From Burkholderiaceae bacterium (lineage in GTDB: Bacteria; Pseudomonadota; Gammaproteobacteria; Burkholderiales; Burkholderiaceae), in contig JAVKLU010000020.1 of NCBI GenBank assembly GCA_031538895.1, positions 108-64,107 on the forward strand: a stretch of 64,000 nt of DNA. The letters are read 5' to 3'. The position numbers and the translations under genes are program-made. Shown one piece after another: positions 17,967 through 59,487 of the stretch (positions within the stretch are counted from its first letter, which is position 1; every line of letters starts with the position of its first letter). The notes under the pieces were generated by a model. The model made no database searches, was not told where the DNA came from, and saw only the letters and a list, made by a program, of their open reading frames with translations.

Positions 17967-18129
17967 TTTTGCAAGGTTTTAACGCCGACAATAAAAACAG
18001 ATTCTCTTGAACTGGTGATTCTTTTGAAGTCTTAATTGTGTCGACCCATCTGGCGCACTCATATAATTTCCAGATCAGTGTTTATTGCTTGTTATATTGT
18101 TGGTTAACTCAAATATTTTTACAGTACGT

Positions 18130-37136: not shown

Positions 37137-37231
37137 GTTGGGCATCCTACTTACAATTAAAGTACGCCCATTGTACAGATACCGCAAAAATTATCGTCCT
37201 TGGCGATAAACTTCCCCGTTTGTTTGATTTA

Positions 37232-37374
37232 GGGCACTTCTATCAATTCATTTTTGCGGCGAATTGCTTTTTTGCACAGTACGCGAAATCCTCACCTACT
37301 GTATGTACGCTCCGGTTTCTGTGTGCTGTGCGCCTCGCACTTCATCCGCACATTCTGTATTTATAGAAGTGCCC
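37232..37374 (-). mobile_element. 143-bp MITE-like element, copy A (inverted relative to B and C)
   Basis: Terminal inverted repeats GGGCACTTCTAT.AAT / ATT.ATAGAAGTGCCC, flanked by a direct TTTA/TTTA. About 95% identical to the copies at 52206 and 59249. Confidence 0.75.
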
Positions 37375-37487
37375 TTTAGCTAAATGACGAACAGTGTCAC
37401 GCATTCGCTTGACTTTGCCGTCTTTGATACTGCTATCAGACACCGCAACCACGCATTTTTTGACGTTCTTATTTCTCTCATCACACT

Positions 37488-46375: not shown

Positions 46376-47077
46376 CTAGATCGGTTCTGTCGTCGGTGAT
46401 AAAGAATGCCACCACAATGGCCACAATTCTGTCGGCGCGGTCACCACATAGGCCGCGCTTTGACTACTTGCTTCTGGCGTCAAGATAATTTGTGACGCGA
46501 TGGCGCGATTAGACACGCTCACCATGCGGTCAGGCGCCAACTCTAGCCCATCCAAAGGCCAGAATAATCCCTGACTGTAGGAAAAGCGCATTGACCTCAA
46601 GGCCAGCACGCCGATGGGCGCCTCAGGCTGCACGGCAAAAGACTGCGCACCAACGCACACCCGAGAGACTTGCGCATCGTCAAGTAATAAAAATTTTTGC
46701 GGATTGATCAAAGCACTTGTGTGACATAAATTGGCCAGACTGGCCAAGACCGCCATGGTGTGATCCAAACGCCCACCGCTAAAGCCTAAAGCACACCACA
46801 CTCGTGCAGAAAACTGTGCCAAGGCTTTATCAAAATCAGTATTGTCTTGGTTAGCTTGATGCCAATGTCGTCGCGCCGGCAGTCTTGCGCCCCCGCTGTC
46901 AAAATCACCAATCAAATCGTCAACTTGAACGTCTATTTGTTGCGCGTAAAGCGCCCCGCCATCAGCCGCCACCACACGCAAAGACGAATGATGTCCGCGT
47001 AAATACTGTTCAGTTTGTGCCAATAACACCAAATCAACTGGCGCATTACCAATCAACAAAATGGCATCGTCAATCAT
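46376..47077 (-). CDS. thiamine pyrophosphokinase-like protein
   Basis: About 230 aa with AADGGA and GDFDS motifs resembling TPK catalytic-domain signatures. Assignment is tentative. Confidence 0.55.
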   Translation of the reverse strand: MIDDAILLIGNAPVDLVLLAQTEQYLRGHHSSLRVVAADGGALYAQQIDVQVDDLIGDFDSGGARLPARRHWHQANQDNTDFDKALAQFSARVWCALGFSGGRLDHTMAVLASLANLCHTSALINPQKFLLLDDAQVSRVCVGAQSFAVQPEAPIGVLALRSMRFSYSQGLFWPLDGLELAPDRMVSVSNRAIASQIILTPEASSQSAAYVVTAPTELWPLWWHSLSPTTEPI

Positions 47078-47122
47078 AAATTTATCGCACGAATAAAAAC
47101 GCTTACAAATTGTTTGTGCCGA

Positions 47123-51330: not shown

Positions 51331-51403
51331 TTTTTTCCTTTGATTCAAAATCAATGCGCTAAACGCATTGCTAATTCAACAAATAATTACCAACTCAATC
51401 GAT

Positions 51404-52180
51404 TTAACCAAAACGTCCGGTTAAGTAGTCTTCTGTTTCTTTACGTTTTGGTTTCAAAAACAATTCATCGGTCACACCGTATTCAACCAAATCACCTAAA
51501 TACATATAGGCCGTAAAGTCAGACACCCGCGCCGCTTGCTGCATGTTGTGAGTCACAATCAAAATTGACACACGCTCTTTTAAATGCGCGATCAATTCTT
51601 CAATACTCGCCGTGGCAATGGGATCAAGTGCTGAAGTCGGTTCATCAAATAATAAAATTTCAGGTTCGGTTGCCAAACATCGCGCAATACACAAACGCTG
51701 TTGCTGACCGCCGGATAAAGAATTTGCCAATTCATGCAAACGGTGCTTGACTTCTTTCCACAAAGCCGCGTCTTTCAAAGCTTGTTCAACACGGTCTTCG
51801 ATTTCGGTGCGGCTTAAAGAACCGCGCAAACGTAAGCCGTAGGCGACGTTTTCAAAAATTGACTTCGGAAAAGGATTGGGTTTTTGGAATACCATCCCAA
51901 TACGCATTCGTACTTCTATCGGATCAACTTCCGGTGCCAAAATATTGGTATCGTCCGGATACAAACGAATTACGCCGTCGTAACGCGTGCCCGGATACAA
52001 ATCATGCATCCGATTAAACGAACGCAACAGCGTTGACTTGCCACAACCTGATGGCCCAATTAAGGCAGTGACTTTCTTATCGCAAAGAGTCAAATTTACA
52101 TTTTTCAAGGCTTGGAATGCGCCGTAATAAAAACTAAAATTTTGCGCTTCAGCTTTCACATCTAGTTTGGTTTCGTTCAT
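51404..52180 (-). CDS. pstB: phosphate ABC transporter ATP-binding protein
   Basis: [34 protein letters not shown]. Confidence 0.95.
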
Positions 52181-52205
52181 AAATTTTTCAGCAAAATTCC
52201 AATAA

Positions 52206-52348
52206 GGGCACTTCTATAAATACAGAATGTGCGGATGAAGTGCGAGGCGCTCAGCACACAGAAACCGGAGCGTACATACAGTACGTGAGGATTTCGCGTA
52301 CTGCGCAACAAAGCAATTCGCCGCAAAAATGAATTGATAGAAGTGCCC
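52206..52348 (+). mobile_element. 143-bp MITE-like element, copy B (within the pstA-pstB spacer)
   Basis: Same TIRs (GGGCACTTCTATAAAT…ATTGATAGAAGTGCCC), flanked by a direct ATAA/ATAA. Confidence 0.75.
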
Positions 52349-52391
52349 ATAACAATCAAGTAAGTGCTTACCGCAAAAAATAACTACAGGG

Positions 52392-53309
52392 TTACCACTT
52401 AATACGTTTACGCAATTGATAGCGCACCACAATTGCCGCACCATTCATCGCCAGTGTCATCAACACCAATACCACACCGGCGGCGGCGGCGTTTTGCACA
52501 AAAGCGGCTTCTGGACGCGAAGTCCAGTTAAACATTTGAATCGGCATTACCGTGAACGCTGAAAAAAGCCAATCAAAATTCAAAAATGGCGCGTCAGTTC
52601 CAATCGGAGATGGCGGTAAAAATGCAATAAACGTCAACGCACCTATCGTAATAATCGGCGCGGTCTCACCAATCGCTCGCGATAAACTGATAATGATTCC
52701 AGTCAAAATTCCAGATGCTGAATACGGCAAAACGTGATCACGCGTCACTTGCCACTGCGTTGCACCTAGGCCATATGCGGCTTCGCGGATGTATTGTGGA
52801 ATCGCACGAATTGATTCGCGCGTTGCCACAATCACAATTGGCAGCGCTAATAAACCCAAAGTCAGCCCCGCCGACAAAATACTTTGTCCAAATCCAAAAG
52901 CGTAAACAAAAACACCTAAGGCCAATAGACCATACACAATCGAGGGCACACCTGCCAAATTACTCACGTTGATTTCGATAATGTCAGTCATCCAATTTTT
53001 GGGCGCGTATTCTTCCAAGTAAACCCCTGCCGCGACTCCCAGAATCACTGAAGTCATACTGGTCACCAACATCACCAAAAGCGAACCAACCCATGCCGAA
53101 AAAATTCCGGCGCGTGCCGCGTGGCGCGATGGAAATTGCGTAAAAAAATCGGCGTTTAAACGTGGCCATCCATCCAACAACATTTGTGCAAATAACACAA
53201 TAAAAACCATCACCGCGAGCATTAAGGCTAAAAAACTACTGACCGAAAAAATCACATCCCAGCGGCGATTTTTTTTAACTAACTGAGAGAGCTTGCTTGA
53301 ATTCATCAT
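52392..53309 (-). CDS. pstA: phosphate ABC transporter permease PstA
   Basis: Polytopic permease with an EAA-type loop (…REAAYGLGATQWQV…). Operon position. Confidence 0.9.
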   Translation of the reverse strand: MMNSSKLSQLVKKNRRWDVIFSVSSFLALMLAVMVFIVLFAQMLLDGWPRLNADFFTQFPSRHAARAGIFSAWVGSLLVMLVTSMTSVILGVAAGVYLEEYAPKNWMTDIIEINVSNLAGVPSIVYGLLALGVFVYAFGFGQSILSAGLTLGLLALPIVIVATRESIRAIPQYIREAAYGLGATQWQVTRDHVLPYSASGILTGIIISLSRAIGETAPIITIGALTFIAFLPPSPIGTDAPFLNFDWLFSAFTVMPIQMFNWTSRPEAAFVQNAAAAGVVLVLMTLAMNGAAIVVRYQLRKRIKW

Positions 53310-57806: not shown

Positions 57807-57958
57807 GACTCCTCAATTTGTCAATCGGTATCTTTTTTTGTATCTTTATTTATTTATACGCGGATAATAAAGAGCGTTAATGTTCGCTCTAAATCCTGAC
57901 AATCAGTTTTTGCACGCCTTTTATTTAAATAAGCGAATCCTATTTTATTTGCACGTTT

Positions 57959-59239: not shown

Positions 59240-59248
59240 ACGCCTGTA

Positions 59249-59391
59249 GGGCACTTCTATAAATACAGAATGTGCGGATGAAGTGCGAGGCGAACAGCAC
59301 ACAGAAAGCGGAGCGTACCTACAGTACGTGAGGATTTCGCGTACTGCGCAACAACGCAATTCGCCGCAAAAATGAATTGATAGAAGTGCCC
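59249..59391 (+). mobile_element. 143-bp MITE-like element, copy C
   Basis: Same TIRs, flanked by a direct TGTA/TGTA. It begins 10 nt after the proA stop. Confidence 0.75.
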
Positions 59392-59487
59392 TGTAGAATC
59401 TATGCCCATGCACATGAATGGTGTGCTTGATGTGTCCAGTGTGAAATGTATGATTAAATTCGTTTTTTTAATTGATTGGAGAGCTTT

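What the first reader, a model, noticed from the sequence alone, without database searches (positions are those of the whole stretch)
37228..37378. Uncharacterised 143-bp MITE family with 4-bp target-site duplications (three copies in the window)
The copies at 37232-37374, 52206-52348 and 59249-59391 are about 95% identical. The first is inverted relative to the other two. Each begins GGGCACTTCTAT(A/C)AAT and ends with its inverted complement. Each is bracketed by a different 4-bp direct repeat: TTTA/TTTA, ATAA/ATAA and TGTA/TGTA. An internal 7-bp stem (CAGTACG…CGTACTG) is present. All copies sit in intergenic spacers close to gene ends. There is no transposase in the window, so an autonomous partner must be elsewhere or lost.
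Basis: seen in the sequence. Interest (0 to 1): 0.6.

Follow-up and report, generated by a model that had tools for sequence, protein, structure and literature searches.

The report
IS5-type miniature transposon with shared hairpin core
The three repeats are real copies of a small gene-less jumping element (about 100 copies in this 2-Mb genome) that duplicates 4 bases on insertion. Its folded centre belongs to a very widespread repeat family that databases list only as the "small RNA" sX9, so it is a solid but fairly ordinary find.

Summary
The window holds three 143-bp copies, 96.5-97.2% identical, with GGGCACTTCTAT termini, each flanked by a 4-bp direct repeat. The whole 1.97-Mb draft genome (a Burkholderiaceae MAG) has about 117 copies. 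Of 77 copies with both flanks, 62 have perfect 4-bp duplications; 5.8 are expected by chance. The target consensus is TTAA.

Mobility is shown. All three window sites are precisely empty in the sister species, which carries one copy of the 4-mer. Sister-species insertions map to empty sites here. Both species have an identical consensus, so activity continued after they split.

The interior is not new. A covariance model built only from elements of 24 other Burkholderiales genomes hits the three copies full-length (53-63 bits, E about 1e-11 to 1e-13). The same hairpin module occurs in 119 of 400 sampled genomes of the class. Half of it is Rfam RF02228 (sX9).

The transposase is not identified. 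The 4-bp duplication and TTAA/YTAA targets point to the IS5 group, as for MITEPsy1/ISPsy2. This genome holds only relics of an IS5-group element, whose ends do not significantly match the MITE's.

Verdict: a new member of a known kind, of moderate interest.

The parts
37232..37374 (-). MITE copy 1 (143 bp), between the divergent lipoprotein (DGR target) and ycaO gene starts
   Evidence: R1 model 52.7 bits, E=3.5e-11. Site is empty in sister species G001 (L067).
37228..37231 (.). Left copy of the TTTA target-site duplication of copy 1 (right copy at 37375-37378)
   Evidence: G001 has a single TTTA in GTTTGGTTTAGCTAAATG.
52206..52348 (+). MITE copy 2 (143 bp), between an ABC-transporter permease gene (stop at 52392) and the ATPase gene (start at 52180), both on the - strand
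   Evidence: R1 63 bits, E=7.9e-14. Empty in G001 (L065).
52202..52205 (.). Left copy of the ATAA duplication of copy 2 (right copy at 52349-52352)
   Evidence: Single ATAA in G001.
59249..59391 (+). MITE copy 3 (143 bp), 9 nt after the stop of the aldehyde-dehydrogenase-family (proA-like) gene and upstream of an LPP20 lipoprotein gene
   Evidence: R1 59.5 bits, E=6.4e-13. Empty in G001 (L066).
59245..59248 (.). Left copy of the TGTA duplication of copy 3 (right copy at 59392-59395)
   Evidence: Single TGTA in G001, in GCGCCTGTAGAATC.
52257..52304 (+). Conserved hairpin core of copy 2 (element positions 52-99: CACAGAAACCGGAGCGTACATACAGTACGTGAGGATTTCG), with apical stem GCGTAC/GTACGT and the invariant GGA / GA internal loop
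   Evidence: BLAST to elements with other termini in G029 (E=2.6e-10) and G035. Rfam sX9 matches. Alignment A2 and its covariation.
47076..47079 (.). Empty target site ATAA. The sister species G001 carries a MITE here, flanked by ATAA/ATAA.
   Evidence: L054.
51395..51398 (.). Empty target site TCAA (TTGA on the - strand). G001 carries a MITE here, flanked by TTGA/TTGA.
   Evidence: L057.

Best explanation
This is a non-autonomous DNA transposon (MITE) of 143 bp.

Shown: it has 16-nt terminal inverted repeats. It inserts with a staggered cut that duplicates 4 bp, preferring T-T-A-A-like sites. It has about 100-117 copies in this genome. It has inserted at different places in two sister species since they split.

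Inferred: a DDE transposase supplied in trans binds the GGGCACTTCTAT ends, excises or copies the element, and integrates it. The most likely enzyme is an IS5-group transposase, because that group makes 4-bp duplications at CTAG/YTAA targets. The odds that the partner is IS5-group are about 0.6.

Shown: the interior (positions 15-129) is a long imperfect hairpin homologous to a module carried by MITE-like elements with quite different ends in about 30% of sampled genomes of the class.

Inferred: the module serves the element's own propagation, through DNA or RNA structure or as a protein-binding site, rather than the host. Copies here sit in both orientations equally and decay evenly along their length.
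For: Copy number and duplications: 117 copies over 100 bp; 62 of 77 have a perfect 4-bp TSD against 5.8 expected.

Target logo: T43, T46, A38 and A49 of 62 at the four TSD positions, and C at position -1 in 31 of 62.

Empty sites: G001 insertions L041, L051, L054 and L057 map to G000 sites where the flanks overlap by exactly 4 bp. The three window copies are absent from G001, which has the 4-mer once.

Age and activity: seven insertions are shared and orthologous, with MITE identity 90-98.6% and flank identity 89-99%. The consensus of the two species is identical, 143/143. Copies differ from the consensus by 1-6 substitutions, spread evenly.

Orientation: relative to flanking transcription it is 23:23.

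Homology of the interior: model R1, trained without this genome, scores 53-63 bits over the full model length. R1 hits 119 of 400 genomes and 105 of 321 genera of the class. In alignment A2, 41 of 49 pairs show compensatory changes.

IS5 link: MITEPsy1/ISPsy2 make a 4-nt duplication at CTAG or YTAA and were trapped transposing (PMC3189936). IS5-group relatives (NF033581, 322 bits) have TTAA/TTAG/CTAG flanks. The genus carries such an element: a copy apparently interrupted by one frameshift in G001 (read by eye from the two overlapping ORFs), relics in G000 at C41 and C73, and an intact copy in the related MAG AaM_T059_1.
Against: No element with GGGCACTTCTAT ends and a transposase gene was found in G000, in G001, in 31 genome loci or in 80 metagenome loci of IS5-group relatives.

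The MITE ends match the genus's own IS5-group ends (GGACACTCTGCAAAAG) at only 12-13 of 18 positions with gaps. That is not better than shuffled controls (p = 0.15-0.4).

G000 has no intact IS5-family gene, yet its copies look young.

Many target 4-mers (TTTA, ATAA, TTAT) do not fit the strict YTAR rule.

Two genomes rich in the hairpin module (G588, G712) have no PF01609 transposase at all.
Confidence: 0.85

Rival explanations
1. The element is a MITE, but it is moved by a transposase that is not IS5-group. Candidates include another family that makes 4-bp duplications (IS701, IS1182, IS1380/ISH3), a PIF/Harbinger-like enzyme, or an enzyme on a plasmid or phage missing from the MAG.
For: No IS5-group element with matching ends was found. 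G000 holds only IS5 relics. MAG binning tends to lose multi-copy IS contigs, and about 40 contig ends stop inside MITE copies. The hairpin module occurs in genomes without any PF01609 gene.
Against: The 4-bp duplication with a TTAA/YTAA preference and GG-starting 16-nt TIRs is the IS5-group signature (PMC3189936). Other transposase families were not searched systematically, so nothing positive supports this rival.
Confidence: 0.3
2. The repeats are primarily copies of a structured small-RNA gene or cis-regulatory RNA (as the Rfam label sX9 implies). They are kept for an RNA function in the host rather than as selfish mobile DNA.
For: The core matches RF02228. The G029 element scores 44.9 bits against a gathering score of 44, and the window copy scores 21 bits with E=0.068. 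The fold is strong (z = -7.5 and -7.0). The GGA/GA internal loop is invariant, and 41 of 49 pairs covary. sX9 was detected as a 75-nt transcript in Xanthomonas (PMC3300014).
Against: TSDs and precise empty sites show transposition. There is no orientation bias relative to genes (23:23). The core is not protected from substitutions within the genome. Both strands fold about equally: G-U 47 against A-C 34 over the union of pairs, MFE -52.0 against -50.6, and the plus strand is more stable in 13 of 24 elements. No promoter-like or terminator-like site was found in or next to copy 2.
Confidence: 0.05
3. The repeats are REP/REPIN-type palindromes spread by a single-copy REP-associated tyrosine transposase (RAYT).
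For: A Y1_Tnp-like gene exists in both species: G000 C80:9923-10195 at 23.5 bits and G001 at 21 bits. The wider family carries a conserved GTAG motif in its arms.
Against: To my knowledge REPINs do not make target duplications, whereas these copies have 4-bp TSDs and TIRs. The gene scores 30 bits against a cut-off of 80 for NF047646. By my reading of its sequence, the HUH histidine pair is replaced by QFH. The nearest MITE copy on that contig is about 8 kb away.
Confidence: 0.02

Closest known systems
MITEPsy1 with ISPsy2 (IS5 family) of Pseudomonas syringae pv. phaseolicola (Bardaji et al. 2011, PMC3189936)
   Same: Both are small, gene-less elements with 16-18-nt TIRs starting GG. Both make a 4-nt duplication at AT-rich or stop-codon-like targets (CTAG or YTAA there; a TTAA consensus here). 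Both depend on a transposase in trans.
   Different: MITEPsy1 is 100 nt with ends GGAAGGTCTGAAAAAGCC, nearly identical to those of its parent ISPsy2, and was caught transposing. Here the ends are GGGCACTTCTATAAAT, no parent with matching ends is known, the copy number is about 20 times higher, and mobility is inferred from empty sites only.
Rfam RF02228 sX9 (Xanthomonas sRNA, Schmidtke et al. 2012, PMC3300014)
   Same: The sX9 model aligns to one half of the hairpin interior. It detects sister elements in 27 of 301 Burkholderiales genomes.
   Different: sX9 is filed as a single sRNA gene of 75 nt. It is not described as part of a 115-150-bp mobile palindrome with TIRs and TSDs. The window copies score only 21 bits against a gathering score of 44.
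ERIC / IRU repeats of Enterobacteriaceae (about 127 bp)
   Same: Both are imperfect palindromes of similar size, intergenic and classed as MITEs. The centre is similar: GGAGCTTACAT-AAGTAAGTGA in ERIC, GGAGCGTACATACAGTACGTGA here.
   Different: ERIC is flanked by TA (PMC3184786), not by 4-bp duplications. Model R1 gives an E. coli ERIC copy only 13.2 bits: E=0.0056 in a targeted 644-nt search and 0.56 in a 64-kb search. ERIC hits Rfam V_AS5, not sX9. Homology is not established.
Correia elements (CREE/NEMIS) of Neisseria
   Same: Both are abundant MITEs of 100-160 bp with TIRs in a betaproteobacterial lineage, and both often sit next to genes.
   Different: Correia elements duplicate TA and have different TIRs (my own knowledge and PMC3184786). 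No sequence test was run here.

Membership tests
Bacterial MITE (non-autonomous DDE-type transposon) | Short length (under about 500 bp) with no coding capacity for a transposase | tested here: met
   The element is 143 bp. The only ORF is a 15-codon frame that is not kept across relatives.
Bacterial MITE (non-autonomous DDE-type transposon) | Terminal inverted repeats | tested here: met
   16-nt TIR, 15/16 complementary, present in nearly all copies.
Bacterial MITE (non-autonomous DDE-type transposon) | Target-site duplication of fixed length, single-copy at empty sites | tested here: met
   62 of 77 copies have a perfect 4-bp TSD against 5.8 expected. Seven or more precise empty sites exist between G000 and G001.
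Bacterial MITE (non-autonomous DDE-type transposon) | Multiple dispersed copies, polymorphic between relatives | tested here: met
   About 117 copies in G000 and about 140 candidates in G001. Both shared and lineage-specific insertions occur.
IS5-group-derived MITE (IS5 family, NF033581-type transposase) | 4-bp duplication at YTAR-type targets (CTAG/YTAA) | tested here: inconclusive
   The 4-bp length is met. The consensus is TTAA, but only 11 of 62 TSDs are strict YTAA; TTTA, ATAA and TTAT are also common. The reference behaviour comes from PMC3189936 and.
IS5-group-derived MITE (IS5 family, NF033581-type transposase) | TIRs matching those of a resident or related IS5-group insertion sequence | tested here: not met
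   The genus's IS ends GGACACTCTGCAAAAG match at 12-13 of 18 with gaps (p = 0.15-0.4). None of 111 IS5-group loci has GGGCACYTCTAT ends.
IS5-group-derived MITE (IS5 family, NF033581-type transposase) | An intact IS5-group transposase available in the host | tested here: not met
   G000 has only relics, at C41:10308-10547 and C73:23705-24088. The G001 copy appears frameshifted. An intact copy exists only in the related MAG AaM_T059_1. The MAG may be incomplete for IS contigs.
sX9-type hairpin-core repeat superfamily (Rfam RF02228 covers half of it) | Full-length match to the conserved hairpin interior (GTAGCGAGCGG ... GGAACCGGA-R-TGTAC loop GTAC-R-TGAGGATTCCGAGCACC ... CGCAGTAG) | tested here: met
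   Model R1, built from 24 foreign elements, scores 63, 59.5 and 52.7 bits over model positions 1-117. The core gives BLAST E=2.6e-10 to the G029 element, which itself passes the sX9 gathering score.
sX9-type hairpin-core repeat superfamily (Rfam RF02228 covers half of it) | Reaches Rfam's gathering score for RF02228 | tested here: not met
   The window copy scores 21 bits against a gathering score of 44. The arms are AT-rich and diverged in this genus.
ERIC / IRU | Significant sequence and structure similarity to ERIC | tested here: inconclusive
   R1 on an E. coli ERIC copy gives 13.2 bits, E=0.0056 targeted and 0.56 in 64 kb. There is no shared Rfam family.
ERIC / IRU | TA flanking dinucleotide | tested here: not met
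   The duplications here are 4 bp and not TA-specific. The TA flanks of ERIC are as stated in PMC3184786.
REP/REPIN with RAYT | No TSD, and REP hairpins flanking a functional single-copy RAYT gene | tested here: not met
   TSDs are present. The Y1-like gene is far below the NF047646 cut-off and appears to lack the HUH motif.

The most novel reading that the evidence does not exclude
The invariant, asymmetric hairpin centre (CCGGA-R-TGTAC ... GTAC-R-TGAGG with a GGA/GA internal loop) may be a functional module in its own right. It could be a binding site for a transposase or host protein, or a structured nucleic-acid motif needed for propagation. On this reading it has been re-fitted repeatedly with different IS5-type ends, which would explain its presence in about 30% of sampled genomes of the class while the termini differ. 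Rfam's 'sX9 sRNA' would then be a fragment of one of the most widespread bacterial MITE backbones.
Probability: 0.4. Interest if true: 0.65.

Novelty: new member of a known kind. Interest (0 to 1): 0.35.

Why it matters
For this genome, the element makes up about 0.85% of the DNA. It breaks the assembly at roughly 40 of 166 contig ends. It sits on or next to stop codons in a third of cases and lies in promoter regions such as the DGR-target/ycaO spacer. It gives dozens of presence/absence markers between the two sister species.

More generally, it is another clean case, with proven empty sites, of a conserved hairpin backbone riding on lineage-specific transposon ends. The backbone is annotated in public databases only as a Xanthomonas small RNA. 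Automated 'sX9' annotations in many genomes are therefore probably MITE copies.

The open question is what keeps the asymmetric core invariant while the ends change. That can be tested with a trap assay.

Tried and rejected
1. Autonomous copy in G000. TIR-like 12-mers outside MITEs are chance-level. The partial hits are 40-bp deletion derivatives or decayed copies. The only long repeats are 89-95% identical housekeeping contigs, which indicate a strain mixture rather than an IS.

2. IS5-group relatives with MITE-like ends. None was found among 31 genome loci or 80 metagenome loci. The end similarity to the genus's own IS is not significant.

3. Transposase loci of seven module-rich genomes. 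They carry none of the TIRs and arm/core motifs taken from the module copies of those genomes.

4. A conserved 15-codon ORF (MRIPSTARPRITAAQ*; here VRISRTAQQSNSPQK*). It is present in 16 of 28 elements but frame-broken or start-less in the others, and by eye the variation is not concentrated at third codon positions. It was rejected as a by-product of conserved length.

5. Strand-specific RNA selection. There is no orientation bias and no clear excess of G-U over A-C pairs or difference in MFE between strands.

6. Promoter or terminator activity. No consensus sites were found in or around copy 2.

7. BRE repeat of Bordetella (PMC3110155). It is a tandem repeat of 69% GC and about 90 bp with no sequence available in the text, so it could not be compared.

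8. RAYT/REPIN. Rejected.

Full report
**Observation.** Each is 143 bp, and copies 1 and 3 are 97.2% and 96.5% identical to copy 2. Each has GGGCACTTCTATAAAT ... ATTGATAGAAGTGCCC ends and is bracketed by TTTA, ATAA and TGTA direct repeats. The 7-bp stem CAGTACG/CGTACTG exists (6/7 in copy 1). It is an alternative to the apical stem GCGTAC/GTACGT that is conserved in relatives.

**Genome census.**
- The window is C83:108-64107 of a 1.97-Mb, 83-contig, 47% GC assembly.
- BLAST finds 124 hits, 117 of them longer than 100 bp. About 40 lie at contig ends, so the element is a main cause of assembly breaks. A fourth copy starts 37 nt beyond the window end.
- Of 77 copies with both flanks, 62 have a perfect 4-bp duplication and most of the rest match at 3 of 4 positions. 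Random re-pairing of flanks gives 5.8.
- The target logo is T-T-A-A (43, 46, 38 and 49 of 62), with C at position -1 in half the sites.
- Copies differ from their consensus by 1-6 substitutions, spread evenly, with no protection of TIRs or core.
- Variants of 150, 157 and 164 bp carry one to three extra CACAGCA units.
- Two 40-bp mini-elements arose by deletion between GAAGTGC repeats. One of them sits at a site where the sister species has a full copy.

**Mobility.**
- The only other species of the genus among 40 sampled relatives (G001, 'MAG: Burkholderiaceae bacterium isolate AaM_S007_2') has about 140 candidates.
- Twenty G001 insertions with usable flanks were mapped onto G000. Seven are shared. 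Four map to sites where the two flanks overlap by exactly 4 bp, with two more likely. One corresponds to the 40-bp mini-element.
- In the other direction, all three window copies are absent from G001, where the 4-mer occurs once.
- The consensus sequences of the two species are identical, 143/143. Orthologous copies are 90-98.6% identical, within flanks that are 89-99% identical.
- Some insertions therefore predate the split, and transposition continued afterwards in both lineages.

**Position relative to genes.** With simple ORF calls, 46 copies lie between tandem genes, 13 between convergent genes and 11 between divergent genes. Orientation relative to transcription is 23:23. In 27 of 77 copies the duplication overlaps an ORF stop codon, against 7.9% expected for equally weighted non-coding target 4-mers. 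The element lands on TAA-containing words at gene ends and regenerates the stop. In the window, copy 2 sits inside an ABC-transporter gene cluster. Copy 3 lies 9 nt after the stop of a proA-like gene. Copy 1 lies in the divergent promoter region between the DGR-target lipoprotein gene and ycaO.

**The interior is a known, widespread module.**
- A BLAST of the element against relatives found no full copies outside the genus. Its centre (positions 52-99) did match elements with quite different termini in two other families of the order, at E=2.6e-10 and 6e-7.
- Rfam places those elements, and weakly the window copy, in RF02228 sX9: 44.9, 31-34 and 21 bits against a gathering score of 44.
- A search of 301 genomes of the order with RF02228 found 27 positive genomes.
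- Twenty-seven such elements were aligned with the window copy (A2). The interior is conserved: GTAGCGAGCGG ... GGAACCGGA-R-TGTAC, a variable loop, GTAC-R-TGAGGATTCCGAGCACC ... CGCAGTAG. The outer stems and termini vary but stay paired, and 41 of 49 predicted pairs show compensatory changes.
- A covariance model (R1) was built from 24 foreign elements without this genome. It finds exactly the three window copies, full-length, at 63, 59.5 and 52.7 bits (E from 8e-14 to 3.5e-11), with nothing else in the window above noise.
- Over 400 genomes drawn evenly from the class, R1 hits 119 genomes and 105 of 321 genera at E<=1e-5, with scores up to 130 bits.
- Only the outer 14 nt on each side are therefore specific to this genus.
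- A review lists sX9 among the most frequently annotated 'sRNAs' (PMC9029176), which fits a repeat. I found no paper describing it as a MITE backbone.

**Is the core an RNA?** Both strands fold strongly (z = -7.5 and -7.0). I found no sign of a strand-specific role. There is no orientation bias. Over the union of pairs, G-U counts 47 against A-C 34, and mean MFE is -52.0 against -50.6 kcal/mol. No promoter or terminator consensus was found. Substitutions within the genome do not spare the core. One thing needs explaining. The GGA/GA internal loop and the flanking CC/GG are invariant and asymmetric in all 28 sequences, which points to sequence-specific recognition of some kind. I take this to serve the element (inference).

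**ERIC.** The ERIC centre resembles this core by eye. An E. coli ERIC copy (L075) was fetched and tested. It scores 13.2 bits with R1, and it is the best non-family hit, lying exactly on the element. E is 0.0056 in the targeted search but 0.56 together with the window, and the calibration is rough. ERIC hits Rfam V_AS5, not sX9. The relationship stays open.

**The transposase.**
- G000 has no IS-like repeats.
- A PF01609 search finds one DUF772+DDE_Tnp_1 gene in G001 and a remnant in G000. tblastn adds a second remnant at C73.
- The G001 gene is apparently interrupted by one frameshift, read by eye from the two overlapping ORFs.
- Its relative in the MAG AaM_T059_1 is intact (330 aa, NF033581 at 322 bits). 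It lies in a 1.2-kb element with ends GGACA(C/T)TCTGCA flanked by CTAA/TTAA.
- Across 111 related loci the ends are GGAAGGTCTGCA-type, with TTAA, TTAG or CTAG flanks. This is the same type as ISPsy2/MITEPsy1, which make 4-nt duplications at CTAG or YTAA and were trapped transposing (PMC3189936).
- The 4-bp duplication and TTAA preference of the present MITE fit this group.
- Its ends, however, match the genus's IS at only 12-13 of 18 positions, no better than shuffles. No IS with GGGCACTTCTAT ends was found anywhere I could look.
- The IS5-group assignment is therefore an inference (about 0.6), and the partner is unidentified.
- A Y1/RAYT-like gene exists but is degenerate, and that mechanism does not make duplications.

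**Earlier notes of this scan.** I consulted the sX9/ERIC and IS5-type notes only after the sX9 and superfamily results. The notes on this genome itself were read. Several follow-ups on other genomes describe the same hairpin core on IS5-type ends. One reports nearly identical termini (GGGCACCTCTA) on a MITE in green sulfur bacteria, together with an IS5-family parent. I could not test that. If it is true, it is the best lead to the partner. These notes agree with my reading but are not independent evidence.

**Verdict.** This is a genuine, recently active MITE with proven 4-bp target duplications, and a new genus-specific member of a known kind. Its interior belongs to a very widespread hairpin-core superfamily. 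Its mobilising enzyme is probably IS5-group but unproven.

Noticed in passing
G000 contigs C58/C59, C27/C34, C37/C42, C2/C5, and C65 against C83:1-1442 (window start): Pairs of contigs carrying the same housekeeping genes (alaS, clpA-like and others) are 89-95% identical. The assembly seems to hold pieces of a second, related strain. The first 1.4 kb of the window's contig has such a twin.
   Followed up: partly
G000 C70:10269-10308 and C56:16246-16285: These are 40-bp mini-elements (GGGCACTTCTATAAATACAGAATGTGCGGATGAAGTGCCC) with their own 4-bp flanks (TTAA, ATTA). They are deletion derivatives formed between two GAAGTGC repeats. The C56 site carries a full 143-bp copy in the sister species.
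   Followed up: yes
G000 C21:70591, C29:13598, C45:6028, C68:6290, C80:18402 (150 bp); C17:11868 (157 bp); C41:601 (164 bp): A subfamily has one to three extra CACAGCA units in the left arm and a C-to-G change at position 60. It behaves like a small internal microsatellite within the MITE.
   Followed up: partly
Genome-wide; in the window, copy 3 at 59249: In 27 of 77 copies the 4-bp duplication overlaps an ORF stop codon, against 7.9% expected. Related elements in other genomes are flanked by CTAG, TTAG or CTNAG words that also contain stop codons.
   Followed up: partly
Element positions 79-126 (window 52284-52331 in copy 2): A 15-codon frame starts at the conserved (A/G)TG of the central stem and ends at a conserved stop. 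It is present in 16 of 28 family members, including this one, but is broken in the rest.
   Followed up: partly
G000 C80:9923-10195 (L163:1138-1860, - strand): A single-copy 240-aa Y1-transposase-like (RAYT-like) gene lies next to a gene I read by eye as riboflavin synthase (not searched) and is conserved in both species. It is far below the NCBIfam cut-off, and QFH stands in place of the HUH motif, so it is probably inactive or domesticated.
   Followed up: partly
G000 C73:23705-24088 and C41:10308-10547; also C9:20778-20889 and C9:43095-43163: These are decayed relics of an IS5-group insertion sequence (left end GGACACTATGCAAAAGTTGGGG preceded by TTAG) and possible solo ends.
   Followed up: partly
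L069:2089-2170 (G001 contig C171): An 8-bp tandem repeat (GTGCTTGA/GTGTTTGA, about 10 units) sits between the IS5-group transposase stop codon and the right end of the element.
   Followed up: no
window 18089-18090 and 57833-57834 (C83:18196/18197 and 57940/57941): These are two further sites where the sister species carries a MITE and this genome does not. The junctions are less clean (ACAA/TAAA and TTAA/TTTA flanks in G001) than at 47076 and 51395.
   Followed up: partly
L032:1642-1739 (genome G029): A glycine riboswitch (63.9 bits) lies about 110 nt from an sX9-type element in an unrelated Burkholderiales genome.
   Followed up: no
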